Below, in pieces: positions 34,910 to 38,994 of a stretch of DNA of 50,578 nt. This stretch comes from a virus, in the UHGV virus genome UHGV-1367765. One strand, given 5' to 3'. The position numbers were made by a program, and so were the translations under genes. Within the stretch, counting starts at the first letter, position 1, and the number at the start of each line of letters is the position of its first letter. Under the pieces are notes generated by a model, which had not been told where the DNA came from, ran no database searches, and worked only from the letters and a program-made list of their open reading frames with translations.

Positions 34910-35464
34910 TTAGCCCATCATTTTTTTATACGCTTCTGCAGCCTGCTCCGGCGTTAAGTTGGTAATTTCTGTTCTGACTGGTCCTCCGTCAGCACCAGTC
35001 ACTTCATTTTTGACATTGTCTTTAAACGCCTGAACAGAAACATGACGCCCGAGCAACTCAAGGTTTTTAACCTTATCAGGCCATTTGATTTTCTTCAGGA
35101 GAGCAGCACTATCTGCTGATGCCATCTCGACGACATCCATTCCTGATAGCGTTGTACGCCACACCTTAGGCCAGTCTTTAATCGGCTTCAGTTCGCCATT
35201 GGCAAGCAGAATGTCAAGCACGTCCATCTGATCGATTTCAGTCAGCCGTCGCAATACATAGGCAGCGTCTATACCTACCTCTTCATTGCGTTCAGCCTTT
35301 AGCTCAGCAATGCGATCTGCTATGTCAGGTTTTGACAGGTTCTCGCTACCAGTGGCGCGAGCAGTTTTCTCGCTGTAACCCGCCCTGATAGCTGCCTGAG
35401 TGGCGTTTAAATCTTTCAGGTACTCACGGGCAAACAGCTCTTGTTTGTCTGTGAGCTTTGCCAT
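34910..35464 (-). CDS. terminase small subunit
   Basis: N-terminus [31 protein letters not shown] typical of small terminase subunits. Confidence 0.7.
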
Positions 35465-35571
35465 TATTGGCTCCGTTTATCCGTTAAAAGGGATATCAGT
35501 TAAGTTATCCCGTGTAGGGTATAAGCCATTATCAAAGCCATTCTGCAAGGAATGGCTTTTGTGATGGCAAT

Positions 35572-35591
35572 AAAAAACCGCCCGGAGGCGG
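35572..35591 (-). terminator. Rho-independent terminator after the 94-aa inserted gene
   Basis: CCGCC-cgga-GGCGG hairpin followed by a T-run on the minus strand, immediately after the stop at 35592. Confidence 0.5.
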
Positions 35592-35876
35592 TTACAGTGT
35601 TTTGTATGGTTTCGGCTTAGGGTCACCATGCTGGATGTGTGACATAATCACATCGTCACTAGGCTTATTCCCATGACAGCCAACCAGATAAATTTCATCA
35701 CCAAGCTGATATTCGAAAACATCAAACTCAGCATCCTCGAAGATCGGGGCACCCCCAGAGCTTTTCAGAAGCCTAAATGTCCGATCAGGAGCCTTAATAA
35801 CGGGACTGTAGCTCTCGAGAGCCCAAACATCACCTTTCCAGCCAGCACCAAACAAAATTATTGTCAGCATAGTCAT
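35592..35876 (-). CDS. hypothetical protein (94 aa) between the lysis module and terminase
   Basis: ORF with its own terminator; no recognisable motif. Confidence 0.4.
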   Translation of the reverse strand: MTMLTIILFGAGWKGDVWALESYSPVIKAPDRTFRLLKSSGGAPIFEDAEFDVFEYQLGDEIYLVGCHGNKPSDDVIMSHIQHGDPKPKPYKTL

Positions 35877-36073
35877 CCCTCTCGTAGTAGAGGATTAATT
35901 ATACCAACAGCAAAATAATCATTGCAAATCAGCTAATTATGTCAACCACAATAAAAATTGCGATATTCATCCCCATTATCAAGCCCACCCGCAGATGGGC
36001 TTTGTAATGGATAGCCGTTGCTCAGTTCTCGTAATGCTTTGATTTTTCCGATAACGCAGTTTTGCGTTTGCCA

Positions 36074-36595
36074 TCAGCACGCGATATCGAGAGTCAACTG
36101 CAGTTGCTCGCGCCAGTACTCAACATTTGCTTCAATAACCGGCTTATCCCATCGCCAGCGAGCCATCTCTCTTGCCCCATTGCTGGCTTTTGATTTCCGG
36201 TCATCACGAATGCGACATGCTTGCTCATATTTCTGCTGCTCAGTCAGTTCACCGCGAAGCAGACTATCAATGTGCAGGTCGCACCATACGGAGAATTTCG
36301 GATCGCACCATCTTGCAAAGGCAACTGATAACTTTGGATGCAGCCATGTTCCGCCGCCCCTGTCCTTTCGTGCCTTGCTTGTTTTTACATACCCGGAATC
36401 ACGGGTATGTAGAATTTTCGATGGTTCACCTGAATAAACCTCATCCAGAGCTCTAACGTATTCGAGAGTTTCAGCGTTGGACAACCAGTGATCCAGACGC
36501 TTCCCGAAACGTTTTGCAATATCAGTGGCATTAATCCAGCCATCAGTATTGAAGCGGATAGGTTCGCCTTTGTAATTCAGTGGAACGATATTCAT
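36074..36595 (-). CDS. KilA-N domain protein
   Basis: MNIVPLNYKGEPIRFNTDGWINATDIAKRFGKRLDHWL is KilA-N-like. Confidence 0.6.
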   Translation of the reverse strand: MNIVPLNYKGEPIRFNTDGWINATDIAKRFGKRLDHWLSNAETLEYVRALDEVYSGEPSKILHTRDSGYVKTSKARKDRGGGTWLHPKLSVAFARWCDPKFSVWCDLHIDSLLRGELTEQQKYEQACRIRDDRKSKASNGAREMARWRWDKPVIEANVEYWREQLQLTLDIAC

Positions 36596-36742: not shown

Positions 36743-36765
36743 TAAAAAAGCCCCGCATCGCGAGG
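36743..36765 (-). terminator. terminator-like hairpin after the lysis cassette
   Basis: GCCCCGC-atc-GCGAGGC (one mismatch) followed by a T-run on the minus strand. Confidence 0.4.
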
Positions 36766-36798
36766 CTCATTAAATGGACTTTGTGATTTGCAAAAAAA

Positions 36799-37236
36799 TT
36801 ATTTCAGGCATTGCGTCCTGATGTATTCCTGCAGGTAGTTAACCTGCGCGGTTATCTTGTCGATTCCACTTCGTAGACGGTAATAATTGAGTTCAGCATC
36901 TGCTGTAAGTCTTGGGCTTTCTCCATCGCCCATGCTGCTGGCTCCGGTCGTTGACTTTGCACAGGTGGCGGCGACTTGCATGCGCTTACGACCAGCAGAA
37001 ACATCAGCACGGAGACTTTCGATAGTCGAGTTAGCATCAGCAAGCTCCTTTGTGTATCTGGCGTCAAGTTCTGCTACGTCACGTTGACGCTTCTGCATAT
37101 CAGCGATGATGGATGTGGCTTTGTCGCGCTGGGCTTTGTAGGCGATGGCGTTATCCCGGTAATGATTAACAGCCCATGACAGGCAAACGATGATGCAGAT
37201 AACCAGAGCGGAGATAATCGCGGTGACTCTGCTCAT
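36799..37236 (-). CDS. Rz: i-spanin Rz
   Basis: N-terminus identical to the prophage A Rz and lambda Rz. Confidence 0.85.
36852..37037 (-). CDS. Rz1: o-spanin Rz1 lipoprotein embedded in Rz (start taken at internal ATG)
   Basis: Out-of-frame ORF with lipobox LLVVSAC and a Pro-rich stretch. Confidence 0.65.
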
Positions 37237-37709
37237 ACCTCAATCTCTCTGACCGTTCCGCCAGCCTCTTTGAATTTTGCAATCAGGCTGTCAGCCTTAT
37301 GCTCGAACTGGCCATAACCAGCGCCCGGCAGTGAAGCCCAGATATTGCTGCAACGGTCGATTGCCTGACGAATATCACCGCGGTCAATCATCGGTAAAGC
37401 GCCACGCTCTTTAATCTGTTGCAGTGCCACAGCGTCCTGGCTTTTCGGAGAGAAGTCTTTCAGGCCAAGCTGCTTGCGGTAGGCATCCCACCAACGGGAA
37501 AGAAGCTGGTAGCGTCCGGCGGCTGTTGATTTGAGTTTCGGATTTAGCGTGACAAGTTTGCGAGGGTGATCGGAGTAATCAGTGAATAGCTCTCCGCCTA
37601 CAATGACGTCATAACCATGATTTCTGGTTTTCTGACGTCCGTTATCAGTTCCCTCTGACCACGCCAGCATATCGAGGAACGCCTTACGTTGATTATTGAT
37701 TTCCACCAT
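37233..37709 (-). CDS. R: endolysin R (lambda-type lytic transglycosylase)
   Basis: [35 protein letters not shown]... essentially identical to lambda R as recalled. Confidence 0.9.
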
Positions 37710-38016
37710 CTTCTACTCCGGCTTTTTTAGCAGCGAAGCGTTTGATAAGCGAACCAATCGAGTCAGTACCGATGTAGCCGATAAACACGCTCGTTATATA
37801 AGCGAGATTGCTACTTAGTCCGGCGAAGTCGAGAAGATCACGAATGAACCAGGCGATAATGGCGCACATCGTTGCGTCGATTACTGTTTTTGTAAACGCA
37901 CCGCCATTATATCTGCCGCGAAGGTACGCCATTGCAAACGCAAGGATTGCCCCGATGCCTTGTTCCTTTGCCGCGAGAATGGCGGCTAACAGGTCATGTT
38001 TTTCTGGCATCTTCAT
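37693..38016 (-). CDS. S: holin S (lambda type, dual-start MKM)
   Basis: [35 protein letters not shown]... matches lambda S; overlaps R by 17 nt as in lambda. Confidence 0.9.
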
Positions 38017-38258: not shown

Positions 38259-38334
38259 TGGTGCTGGTTAACGGACTTGAACCGCTACCCATTCGCTTAC
38301 AAGGCGACCGCTCTACCATTGGAGCTAAACCAGC
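38259..38334 (-). tRNA. tRNA-Thr (anticodon UGU inferred)
   Basis: Hand-folded cloverleaf: 7-bp acceptor stem, D-stem GCTC/GAGC, anticodon loop CTTGTAA, T-loop TTCAAGT, 3' ACCA. Confidence 0.55.
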
Positions 38335-38339
38335 ATGTT

Positions 38340-38414
38340 TGGCGGGACAGCGTGGACTCGAACCACGATAAGAAGGTTAACAGCCTTCCGTAATGACCTT
38401 TATACGACTGACCC
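38340..38414 (-). tRNA. tRNA-like gene, anticodon GUU (Asn) inferred; possibly degenerate
   Basis: Cloverleaf with anticodon loop CTGTTAA, T-arm CGTGG-TTCGAGT-CCACG, 3' GCCA, but a U-U mismatch in the acceptor stem and a 3-bp D-stem. Confidence 0.4.
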
Positions 38415-38505: not shown

Positions 38506-38994
38506 CTATGCTACATGTTTAATTTTCTCTACACGTTTCCGGTTTTTAAACGCACCATCCAGAACAGGGTAAATCATAAACAACGAGGAATTGAGGATTT
38601 CGTCAACTTCCCGGCGACAGGTTGCGAGCGATGGTTTTTGAATGCGCCCGCCGCCCCGGCATAACATCTTGCGAGGTCTTGCGACGCGATGATAGTAAGA
38701 TGCAATGGCGTGCTTGGAAGAGCCGTGGGCGTAGTAACTGAGGAGGATGCCAAAGGCTTTCTTGTCAATGTACATGACGGAATCGACGACCTGAGAAATC
38801 AACATTCCATCATCATCATTACACATTGGCCTTGTCATAACTCTTCCCGGCTCTACGCTCTCCATGAACTTCGCTATTACGCTGCTCATGCGCTTTTCCA
38901 GACGACCTGAATAAACCCATGCGCCCCACAGTTCAAGCCATCCATTCAGCCAATCGTGCTGCTCTTTGGTGAGGTTTAGTTCTCTTATGCTCAT
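38506..38994 (-). CDS. late-gene antiterminator Q (Q82/21 family)
   Basis: WLELWGAWVY motif shared with the prophage A Q; cysteine cluster; directly upstream of the late promoter region. Confidence 0.65.
   Translation of the reverse strand: MSIRELNLTKEQHDWLNGWLELWGAWVYSGRLEKRMSSVIAKFMESVEPGRVMTRPMCNDDDGMLISQVVDSVMYIDKKAFGILLSYYAHGSSKHAIASYYHRVARPRKMLCRGGGRIQKPSLATCRREVDEILNSSLFMIYPVLDGAFKNRKRVEKIKHVA

What the first reader, a model, noticed from the sequence alone, without database searches (positions are those of the whole stretch)
35572..35876. Terminator-flanked 94-aa gene of unknown function beside the terminase genes
A small ORF with no recognisable motif sits downstream of the KilA-N gene and is followed immediately by a strong hairpin plus T-run before the small terminase gene. 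Together with the KilA-N gene it forms an accessory insert at the lysis-packaging junction, a common cargo site.
Basis: inference. Interest (0 to 1): 0.4.

Follow-up and report, generated by a model that had tools for sequence, protein, structure and literature searches.

The report
Self-contained orphan cargo gene in prophage
The small gene is real, but it is an ordinary kind of thing: a rare, swappable prophage cargo gene with its own promoter and terminator, encoding a 92-residue protein of unknown family, and it may be a candidate phage-bacterium conflict factor.

Summary
A minus-strand ORF (35592..35876) lies between a KilA-N gene and the small terminase gene. A 7-bp GC-rich hairpin plus T6 starts inside its stop codon.

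The true start is almost certainly the third codon (35870), giving 92 aa. The gene is under purifying selection (dN/dS 0.2-0.4).

It is a classic moron cassette:
- a conserved extended -10 promoter
- a Shine-Dalgarno sequence
- the ORF
- an intrinsic terminator

The cassette sits between two related about 40-nt palindromic linkers. The same cassette recurs in 33 of 35 related loci, behind very different lysis and packaging modules.

It is rare:
- 24 of 5,426 complete E. coli genomes
- 2 of 185,579 species representatives
- none of 50,697 phage records or 72,556 plasmids

Relatives have the slot empty or filled with other cargo.

The protein is an orphan (PHROG 17438, no Pfam, NCBIfam or PADLOC hit). 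Structure models were poor and matched no fold. RefSeq's occasional "PP2C phosphatase" label is not supported.

In several loci the upstream neighbour is Acb2 or a Tad2-like gene. My best guess, at low confidence, is a small binding protein in phage-host conflict: counter-defence or defence. Interest is modest.

The parts
35973..36010 (-). Upstream linker palindrome A (CCATTACAAAGCCCA-loop-TGGGCTTGATAATGG). It lies just after the KilA-N stop and marks the 5' boundary of the cassette slot.
   Evidence: Pattern match with 0 expected by chance. RNA fold -24 kcal/mol, z -4.3. Present about 130-140 nt upstream of the start codon in all 25 unique upstream sequences. Single copy at the empty site L006. 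8 of 13 consensus pairs show compensatory changes.
35937..35945 (-). Invariant 9-mer TTGACATAA upstream of the promoter. Its role is unknown: it is 36 nt (24 nt in a short variant) from the -10 hexamer, which is the wrong spacing for a -35 element.
   Evidence: Present in 33 of 35 loci. Invariant in 25 unique upstream sequences. Coordinates.
35898..35927 (-). Predicted sigma-70 promoter of the cassette: -35-like TTGCAA (35927..35922), an 18-nt spacer, and an extended -10 TGGTATAAT (35906..35898). The inferred transcription start is near 35891.
   Evidence: Promoter scan gives 10 of 12 matches with TG upstream. The extended -10 lies at a fixed 27-29 nt from the ATG in 28 of 35 loci. TGnTATAAT is nearly invariant in the alignment. 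The start site is inferred, not measured.
35876..35883 (-). Shine-Dalgarno region (GAGAGGGA), 5-8 nt upstream of the ATG at 35870.
   Evidence: Sequence. A GGGGG or GGAGG run is conserved at this position in all loci.
35592..35870 (-). Coding sequence of the 92-aa orphan protein (identical to RefSeq WP_001548473.1; PHROG 17438).
   Evidence: ORF list. PHROG 17438, E 2.1e-36. 33 full-length homologue clusters. dN/dS 0.2-0.4. RefSeq CDS of 279 nt.
35572..35593 (-). Intrinsic terminator: stem AACCGCC / GGCGGTT, loop TCCG, then T6. It overlaps the last two bases of the stop codon.
   Evidence: Conserved in 31 of 35 loci. 84-100% nucleotide identity even where the CDS is only 57-66% identical.
35526..35567 (-). 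Downstream linker palindrome B (CCATCACAAAAGCCATTC-loop-GAATGGCTTTGATAATGG), the 3' boundary of the slot. It belongs to the site, not to the cargo.
   Evidence: RNA fold -21.1 kcal/mol, z -4.9. Also retained behind the alternative cargos of HK544 and of the Gp49 locus L019. It shares CCATTATCAA (plus strand) with linker A; the empty site keeps one hybrid copy.
35469..35525 (-). Conserved leader and ribosome-binding site of the first packaging gene. It is not part of the cassette and marks the far edge of the slot.
   Evidence: Identical in loci whose next gene is TerS, DUF2560 or HNH. It directly follows the linker in at least 39 of 117 IMG/VR junctions.
36074..36595 (-). KilA-N domain gene (173 aa), the upstream neighbour. 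It is an independent accessory module.
   Evidence: Pfam KilA-N, E 2.8e-24. PHROG 129, transcriptional regulator. RefSeq WP_001028468.1 in relatives with and without the ORF.
34910..35464 (-). Small terminase subunit gene (Terminase_2), the downstream neighbour.
   Evidence: Pfam PF03592, E 5e-40. PHROG 51.

Best explanation
What it is (shown, or read directly from sequence). The ORF is a genuine 92-aa gene carried in a self-contained moron cassette inside the late operon of a lambdoid E. coli prophage. On the minus strand the order is:
1. linker palindrome A
2. invariant TTGACATAA
3. extended -10 promoter
4. Shine-Dalgarno sequence
5. ORF
6. intrinsic terminator
7. linker palindrome B
8. leader of the small terminase gene

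How it moves. The cassette is rare. It moves as a unit between unrelated lambdoid backbones of Enterobacteriaceae. The most likely route is homologous recombination at the short conserved linkers and at its own conserved ends.

How it is expressed (inferred). In a lysogen the cassette's own sigma-70 promoter should make a monocistronic mRNA of about 320 nt, ending at its terminator. During lytic growth, Q-modified RNA polymerase coming from upstream of the lysis genes should read through both hairpins, so the insert does not break late transcription.

What the protein does (inference, low confidence). The protein is soluble, mildly acidic (pI about 5) and predicted to be beta-rich. It has no catalytic signature. 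Its middle (residues 10-48) is variable and its C-terminal half is conserved. I therefore expect it to act by binding a partner or a small ligand rather than by catalysis, in phage-host or phage-phage conflict. I lean slightly towards counter-defence, because in several loci it sits directly behind Acb2 or a Tad2-like gene. Lysogen-expressed defence is almost as likely.

Confidence by layer: cassette architecture and accessory status about 0.85; a conflict role of either direction about 0.6; counter-defence specifically about 0.3.
For: Real gene:
- dN/dS is 0.2-0.4 in all informative pairs.
- pN/pS is 0.47 overall across 23 unique CDS.
- There are 33 full-length clusters, all of 91-94 aa.

Cassette:
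- The promoter scan finds it.
- TTGACATAA is present in 33 of 35 loci, the extended -10 in 28 of 35 at a fixed distance, and the terminator in 31 of 35.
- Promoter and terminator are conserved even where the protein is only about 50% identical.
- Cassette GC is 43%, against 50% for the window.

Accessory and mobile:
- It is in 24 of 5,426 E. coli genomes, while the flanks are in 2,549.
- A 99.5-100% identical cassette sits in backbones with different packaging modules.
- Empty and alternative fillings of the same slot exist.
- In other genera it lies behind different lysis genes and ahead of Terminase_2, GpA/cos, DUF1441 or other terminases.
- Synonymous divergence collapses at codons 87-92 (pS 0.15 against 0.53 overall), and the ends of the cassette are near-identical. 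This is the pattern expected of recombination boundaries.
- The linker model is an established idea for lambdoid mosaicism (PMC3233612, citing Susskind and Botstein 1978 and Clark et al. 2001).

Conflict role:
- Acb2 lies immediately upstream in L009, L010, L041, L043 and L045. A 53%-identical Acb2 allele lies upstream in L044.
- A Tad2-like gene (PF11195, E 1.9e-24) lies upstream in L030.
- Anti-defence genes tend to cluster, and guilt by association has worked before (PMC11724313).
- The protein is small, acidic and patchily distributed, with a variable centre.
Against: - No expression data. The promoter is predicted from sequence only.
- The strictly conserved TTGACATAA is at the wrong distance to serve as the -35 element of the conserved -10 hexamer. 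The regulatory logic is therefore not understood.
- Function rests on neighbourhood alone. Only 3 independent contexts out of roughly 20 place it beside a known anti-defence gene. Most neighbours are KilA-N or Rha regulators, or other orphans. About two thirds of known anti-defence genes stand alone (PMC11724313).
- The Acb2 and Tad2-like neighbours lack their own promoter and terminator, whereas this gene has both. That difference fits a lysogen-expressed defence or host-fitness moron at least as well.
- Structure models are poor (pLDDT 63-64), so 'binding protein' is an argument from absence.
- The conserved C-terminal tail may reflect DNA-level rather than protein-level constraint.
Confidence: 0.62

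Rival explanations
1. Lysogen-expressed defence or superinfection-exclusion moron. The prophage makes the protein constitutively from its own promoter, and the protein blocks other incoming phages. The variable centre would track phage targets.
For: - It has its own promoter and terminator, the hallmark of morons expressed from a repressed prophage. The moron definition is as summarised in bioRxiv 10.1101/2024.10.15.618418.
- The known anti-defence neighbours Acb2 and Tad2-like lack such signals.
- Distribution is rare and patchy, and allelic diversity is high.
- Characterised lambdoid morons such as HK97 gp15 are exclusion factors (own knowledge; Cumby et al. 2012).
Against: - No PADLOC hit.
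- No membrane segment or signal peptide, unlike most known exclusion proteins (sequence).
- No effector-like domain.
- It sits beside counter-defence genes in three independent contexts.
Confidence: 0.28
2. It is a PP2C-family serine/threonine phosphatase, or a fragment of one, as RefSeq names the identical protein in some genomes.
For: - PGAP labels WP_001548473.1 'PP2C family serine/threonine-protein phosphatase' and WP_227533682.1 'serine/threonine-protein phosphatase'.
- The 94-aa form gives a weak SpoIIE match: E 0.24, 11.8 bits against a cut-off of 25.
Against: - With the 92-aa start the match disappears. None of the 34 family members hits any PP2C or SpoIIE model at E <= 10.
- A family profile finds no PP2C among all PDB chains at E <= 10.
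- Fold searches give no PP2C.
- At 92 aa the protein is well under half a PP2C domain (more than 190 residues).
- No aspartate is invariant in the family, so the binuclear metal site cannot be formed. The residue that aligns to the TDG aspartate varies (H, N or S).
Confidence: 0.02
3. It is a late-function helper for lysis timing or DNA packaging, and it sits at this junction because it works with the neighbouring genes.
For: - The position is strikingly constant. In nearly all loci the gene lies between the last lysis-region gene and the first packaging gene, on the same strand as the late operon.
Against: - It is absent from the vast majority of phages with the same lysis and packaging genes.
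- It combines with at least four unrelated terminase types and several lysis cassettes.
- It has its own promoter and terminator, so it is uncoupled from late regulation.
- One subfamily sits after a primase gene instead.
- The constant position is explained by the linker-bounded slot.
Confidence: 0.05
4. The ORF is not functional as a protein. What is conserved is the DNA (promoter, terminator, linkers), for example as a transcriptional insulator or a small-RNA unit.
For: - The ends of the cassette are more conserved than the coding part.
- Frameshifted 73-aa alleles exist (P0016, P0017).
- A truncated copy exists (H75).
Against: - Length is held at 91-94 aa across 33 clusters down to 34% identity, and the start and Shine-Dalgarno sequence are conserved.
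- dN/dS is 0.2-0.4 and pN is below pS in every region.
- No Rfam match.
Confidence: 0.05

Closest known systems
Phage 'morons' (Juhala et al. 2000; Cumby et al. 2012), e.g. lambda bor and lom, and HK97 gp15
   Same: A single extra gene with its own promoter and intrinsic terminator. It is inserted between two genes that are adjacent in related phages, its GC content is lower than that of its surroundings, and it is present in few relatives.
   Different: The product is a soluble cytoplasmic orphan protein, not a membrane or outer-membrane protein. Expression from the prophage has not been shown here. The cassette sits in a slot bounded by conserved palindromic linkers, and its ends are conserved across alleles that differ by about 50% in protein sequence.
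Anti-defence loci of temperate phages (Acb2, Tad2, and anti-CRISPR loci with their own promoter inside late operons of Mu-like Pseudomonas phages)
   Same: A small, acidic, patchily distributed protein. It lies directly next to Acb2 or a Tad2-like gene in several loci. Like acr loci, it has an autonomous promoter in the middle of a late operon.
   Different: No sequence or profile similarity to Acb2 or Tad2 (hhalign probability 1.2% or less). No Aca-like regulator gene in the cassette. No functional test.
PHROG 17438 (unknown function)
   Same: Full-length match at E 2.1e-36. This is the family the protein belongs to.
   Different: The family has no annotation, no structure and no literature.
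PP2C / SpoIIE phosphatases (the RefSeq label)
   Same: Only a sub-threshold local resemblance between residues 2-61 of the 94-aa form and the middle of the SpoIIE model.
   Different: Well under half the domain length, no invariant metal-binding aspartates, and no significant profile or fold match.
Conserved inter-gene 'boundary' or linker sequences of lambdoid phages (Susskind and Botstein 1978; Clark et al. 2001, as cited in PMC3233612)
   Same: Short conserved sequences at gene boundaries that flank interchangeable modules and could target homologous recombination.
   Different: Here the linkers are about 40-nt extended hairpins with conserved outer arms and covarying inner stems. They may therefore also act as RNA 3'-end or processing structures. 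I did not check whether these particular elements have been described.

Membership tests
Moron (autonomously expressed accessory gene of a temperate phage) | Present in some phages and absent from otherwise similar ones, between genes that are adjacent in relatives | tested here: met
   The empty site L006 joins linker and leader directly. Alternative cargo sits in HK544, L005 and L019. 24 of 5,426 genomes carry the gene, against 2,549 with the flanks. 3 of 117 linker-bearing junctions carry the cassette.
Moron (autonomously expressed accessory gene of a temperate phage) | Own promoter upstream of the gene | tested here: met
   At sequence level only: TTGCAA-18-TGGTATAAT, 10 of 12 matches plus the TG motif. 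The extended -10 is conserved at 27-29 nt from the ATG in 28 of 35 loci.
Moron (autonomously expressed accessory gene of a temperate phage) | Own factor-independent terminator downstream | tested here: met
   7-bp GC-rich stem plus T6, -12.8 kcal/mol. Conserved in 31 of 35 loci.
Moron (autonomously expressed accessory gene of a temperate phage) | Transcribed from the repressed prophage | not testable with these tools
   Needs RNA-seq, 5'-RACE or a reporter fusion in a lysogen.
Moron (autonomously expressed accessory gene of a temperate phage) | Base composition differs from the surrounding phage genes | tested here: met
   Cassette 43.2% GC and its promoter region 33%, against 50.1% for the window and 48-57% for the neighbouring genes. 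The difference is modest.
PP2C / SpoIIE serine/threonine phosphatase | Significant match to a PP2C-type profile over a domain of more than 190 residues | tested here: not met
   Best match is SpoIIE at E 0.24, 11.8 bits against a cut-off of 25, and only for the 94-aa form. 0 of 34 members match at E <= 10. The PDB profile search finds no PP2C. The protein is 92 aa.
PP2C / SpoIIE serine/threonine phosphatase | Invariant aspartates that hold the two catalytic metal ions | tested here: not met
   The invariant columns are M1, F7, G10, G13, V51, Y61, L62, G64 and P70. No aspartate is invariant.
PP2C / SpoIIE serine/threonine phosphatase | PP2C fold (beta-sandwich flanked by helices) | tested here: inconclusive
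   Models have low confidence (pLDDT 63-64). Foldseek finds no PP2C and nothing better than E 0.2.
Tad2-like (DUF2829) or Acb2 immune-signal sponges | Sequence or profile similarity to the family | tested here: not met
   No PF11195 or PF24729 hit in 34 members. hhalign against a 32-sequence Tad2-like profile gives probability 1.2%. Against an Acb2 sequence it gives 0.2%.
Tad2-like (DUF2829) or Acb2 immune-signal sponges | Binds cyclic or ADP-ribose-derived immune signals as an oligomer | not testable with these tools
   Needs biochemistry. Only monomer prediction was available.
PHROG 17438 | Full-length profile match | tested here: met
   E 2.1e-36, residues 3-94 against profile positions 1-88 of 88.
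Known anti-phage defence systems (PADLOC-DB v2) | Match to any defence-protein model | tested here: not met
   0 families at E <= 10.

The most novel reading that the evidence does not exclude
The 92-aa protein founds a new family of phage immune-evasion proteins. It would be a small oligomeric binder, for instance a sponge for a nucleotide immune signal that uses its conserved glycine-rich F-x-x-G-x-x-G loop, or an inhibitor of a defence effector. It would be delivered as a plug-in cassette with its own constitutive promoter into the same linker-bounded slot that carries Acb2 and Tad2-like genes in sister prophages.
Probability: 0.2. Interest if true: 0.6.

Novelty: new member of a known kind. 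Interest (0 to 1): 0.33.

Why it matters
On present evidence this is a textbook moron, so the finding itself is ordinary. Three points give it modest value.

1. It is a clean, compact candidate for functional screening: 92 aa, soluble, with its own promoter. It comes from a slot that also carries Acb2 and Tad2-like counter-defence genes, so a phage-challenge assay has a realistic chance of revealing a new defence or counter-defence protein.
2. The slot is a clear natural example of cassette exchange at short conserved, hairpin-forming linkers. That bears on the old question of how lambdoid mosaic boundaries arise.
3. RefSeq's 'PP2C family phosphatase' name for this protein is unsupported and should not be propagated.

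Tried and rejected
- PP2C phosphatase (RefSeq label): rejected.
- Homology to the neighbouring Tad2-like or Acb2 proteins: rejected by profile-profile comparison. The shared 'GW-G' string is chance.
- Known defence protein: no PADLOC hit. No NCBIfam hit either.
- Structure route: two AlphaFold2 runs, with 16- and 34-sequence alignments, gave pLDDT 63.9 and 63.0, and the five models disagreed. Foldseek against PDB (twice) and BFVD gave nothing better than E 0.2 and TM 0.42 or lower. The small-GTPase hits come from the beta-strand plus glycine-loop start and are not meaningful.
- Rossmann-type GxGxxG reading of FGAGWKG: the first glycine is replaced by aspartate in many members and the protein is too short. 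I keep it only as a hint of a phosphate-binding loop.
- Secreted or membrane protein: no signal peptide, lipobox or hydrophobic span. The N-terminus is polar in several subfamilies.
- Deep homologue search: the exhaustive profile search of 1.84 billion representatives added only three distant members and one spurious repeat protein.
- Isolated phages and plasmids: tblastn with three divergent members found none. Given the cassette's roughly 0.4% occupancy, this absence is not statistically telling.
- Rfam: nothing but the two tRNAs.
- 5'-UTR hairpin that sequesters the Shine-Dalgarno sequence: weak (z -1.2) and not conserved.
- Literature: no paper mentions the protein accessions or the PHROG.

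Full report
**Observation**

All genes of this part of the window run on the minus strand. In order they are:
- Q antiterminator (38506..38994)
- tRNA-Asn and tRNA-Thr (38414..38259)
- holin, lysozyme, Rz/Rz1 (38016..36799)
- a terminator (36768..36748)
- a KilA-N gene (36595..36074)
- the ORF in question (35876/35870..35592)
- small terminase (35464..34910), large terminase, portal

The hairpin is a 7-bp stem (5 G-C) with a tetraloop and T6, at -12.8 kcal/mol and z -3.0. It begins inside the stop codon. No Pfam, NCBIfam or PADLOC family matches. The only hit is PHROG 17438, of unknown function, at E 2.1e-36.

**Corrections to the anatomy**

The start is the ATG at 35870, giving 92 aa, rather than 35876.
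- The GAGAGGGA Shine-Dalgarno sequence abuts the first ATG but is correctly spaced for the second.
- Nearly all homologues start at the second.
- RefSeq annotates 279 nt.

TTGCAA, an 18-nt spacer, and TGGTATAAT (an extended -10) lie at 35927..35898. They are preceded by an invariant TTGACATAA at 35945..35937.

The upstream 'terminator' is a strong palindrome without a T-run (36010..35973, -24 kcal/mol). A related palindrome (35567..35526, -21 kcal/mol) follows the real terminator.

**Is it a real gene?**

Yes.
- A word-indexed search of 5.8 billion proteins and an exhaustive profile search of 1.84 billion representatives recover only 33 full-length clusters. All are 91-94 aa and all come from Enterobacteriaceae: Escherichia, Enterobacter, Atlantibacter, Kluyvera, Leclercia and Cronobacter.
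- Pairwise dN/dS is 0.2-0.4.
- Across 23 unique coding sequences, pN is below pS in every region. The centre (codons 10-48) is the most variable, at pN/pS 0.58.
- A few frameshifted or truncated copies exist, as expected for dispensable cargo.

**It is a cassette**

I collected 35 loci from E. coli genomes, other genera and IMG/VR.
- TTGACATAA is present in 33.
- The extended -10 sits at a fixed 27-29 nt from the ATG in 28.
- The terminator is present in 31.

These signals stay nearly identical where the protein is only about 50% identical. The last six codons share this conservation (pS 0.15 against 0.53 overall). The constraint at both ends therefore acts on the DNA. That is the pattern expected if alleles are exchanged by recombination within conserved ends.

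Cassette GC is 43%, against 50% for the window.

**It is accessory and mobile**

- Flank sequences are found in 2,549 of 5,426 complete E. coli genomes. The whole region is found in 11, and any family member in 24.
- The family is in 2 of 185,579 species-representative genomes and in 24 IMG/VR contigs.
- It is in none of 50,697 phage records or 72,556 plasmids.
- A 99.5-100% identical cassette sits ahead of a Terminase_2 module in TL20 and ahead of a DUF2560 plus P22-type packaging module in fECg99.1.
- In other genera it lies behind other lysis cassettes and ahead of GpA/cos, DUF1441 or other terminases.
- One divergent subfamily lies after a primase gene and lacks the promoter and terminator.

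**The slot**

An alignment with relatives fixes the boundaries.
- At the empty site (L006), linker A is joined directly to the conserved leader of the first packaging gene.
- In HK544 and L005 the slot holds an unrelated roughly 300-bp segment.
- In L019 it holds that segment plus a Gp49/Sf6-gene-66 gene, which linker B follows directly.

Linkers A and B share the plus-strand decamer CCATTATCAA, and the empty site keeps one hybrid copy.

Linker A precedes the cassette at a fixed distance in every locus. It also occurs in at least 120 IMG/VR contigs. Of 117 usable junctions among these, 3 carry this cassette and at least 39 are empty.

The linkers have conserved outer arms and inner stems that differ while staying paired. 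Eight of 13 consensus pairs show double changes, although that alignment mixes length variants. This fits the 'short conserved boundary sequence' model of lambdoid mosaicism (PMC3233612).

**What the protein is not**

RefSeq sometimes names the identical protein a PP2C phosphatase. The evidence does not support this.
- The only trace is a SpoIIE match at E 0.24 for the 94-aa form.
- It vanishes with the correct start.
- No family member hits PP2C or SpoIIE at E <= 10.
- A profile search of all PDB sequences finds no PP2C.
- No aspartate is invariant.
- 92 residues is well under half a PP2C domain.

The protein is also unrelated to its Tad2-like or Acb2 neighbours. hhalign gives probability 1.2% and 0.2%.

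Two AlphaFold2 runs gave pLDDT 63-64. They suggest a beta-rich core, a short helix and a disordered tail. Three Foldseek searches found nothing.

**What it may do**

The protein is soluble and mildly acidic, with no signal peptide or membrane span. The conserved features are a strand followed by an F-x-x-G-x-x-G loop, a V-x-E...YL-x-G hairpin and a short helix.

The neighbours vary widely:
- KilA-N or Rha regulators, Gp49, DUF2560, a phage metallopeptidase and many orphans
- Acb2 directly upstream in five near-identical loci, and a 53%-identical Acb2 allele upstream in a sixth
- a Tad2-like gene directly upstream in another locus

Anti-defence genes tend to cluster, although most stand alone (PMC11724313). 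Unlike those neighbours, this gene carries its own promoter and terminator. That is the classical signature of a gene expressed from the repressed prophage.

I therefore commit to the following: a small binding-type protein acting in phage-host or phage-phage conflict. I lean slightly to counter-defence (about 0.3) over lysogen-expressed defence (about 0.28). Helper, pseudogene and phosphatase readings are unlikely.

The expression model rests on sequence signals plus established lambda biology, and it has not been measured. In that model the gene is monocistronic in the lysogen and is read through by Q-modified polymerase in lytic growth.

**Verdict**

The KilA-N gene is a separate module. 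The element is a new member of a known kind, a moron, that encodes an orphan protein. Interest is modest. Its value lies in being a well-defined candidate for a defence or counter-defence screen, and in being a tidy example of linker-mediated cassette exchange.

Noticed in passing
window 35973-36010 and 35526-35567 (minus strand); also L009, L011, L015, L017, L019, L027 and others: A family of about 40-nt palindromic 'linkers' lies at the 3' ends of accessory genes in the lysis-packaging junction. The outer arms are conserved (CCATTACAAAGC ... GCTTGATAATGG) and the inner stems differ but stay paired. RNAalifold finds compensatory changes in 8 of 13 pairs. The exact pattern occurs in at least 120 IMG/VR contigs. 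They could be recombination targets, RNA 3'-end or processing hairpins, or both.
   Followed up: partly
window 35469-35525 (minus strand): A 57-nt leader (CTTATACCCTACACGGGATAACTTAACTGATATCCCTTTTAACGGATAAACGGAGCC) precedes the first packaging gene. It is conserved whatever that gene is (TerS, DUF2560 or HNH). It holds three TATCCC/GGGATA-type motifs. Related variants with the same motif layout occur in other contigs. It may be a protein-binding or regulatory site.
   Followed up: no
window 35937-35945 (minus strand) and the same place in 33 of 35 loci: The 9-mer TTGACATAA is strictly invariant. It lies 36 nt from the -10 hexamer, or 24 nt in a variant that lacks 12 nt, so it is mis-spaced for a -35 element. 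With its flank it forms an imperfect inverted repeat, ATTGTG-N5-CATAAT. It could be an operator, a second promoter or a recombination boundary. It remains unexplained.
   Followed up: partly
window 35592-35609 (codons 87-92) plus the terminator: Synonymous divergence drops to 0.15 in the last six codons, against 0.53 for the whole gene. The conserved PYKTL tail may therefore reflect DNA-level constraint next to the terminator rather than protein function.
   Followed up: yes
RefSeq WP_001548473.1 and WP_227533682.1 (L002 3103-3381; L003 3137-3415): PGAP names this 92-aa protein 'PP2C family serine/threonine-protein phosphatase' in some genomes and 'hypothetical protein' in others. The phosphatase name is unsupported.
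   Followed up: yes
L009 5634-5870; L044 2801-3058; L030 5582-5860: Sister prophages carry Acb2 (anti-CBASS) or a Tad2-like (anti-Thoeris, PF11195) gene in the same junction, directly upstream of the cassette. These genes have no promoter or terminator of their own.
   Followed up: yes
L007 6001-6276 and L008 366-641 (protein P0036): A divergent subfamily (34% identity, different C-terminus) lies between a DUF927/Toprim primase gene and structural genes of another element. It has none of the conserved promoter, terminator or linker sequences.
   Followed up: partly
window 38259-38414 (minus strand): tRNA-Thr(TGT) and tRNA-Asn(GTT) genes lie between the Q antiterminator gene and the holin gene.
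   Followed up: no
window 36074-36595 (minus strand): The KilA-N protein gives a weak PADLOC match to candidate system PDC-S22 (E 3.4e-6, residues 76-105 only). Its C-terminal part resembles Rha or ORF11CD3 regulators.
   Followed up: no
window 36852-37067 within 36799-37236 (minus strand): A 71-aa ORF is embedded out of frame in the Rz gene, in the usual position of Rz1, the outer-membrane spanin.
   Followed up: no
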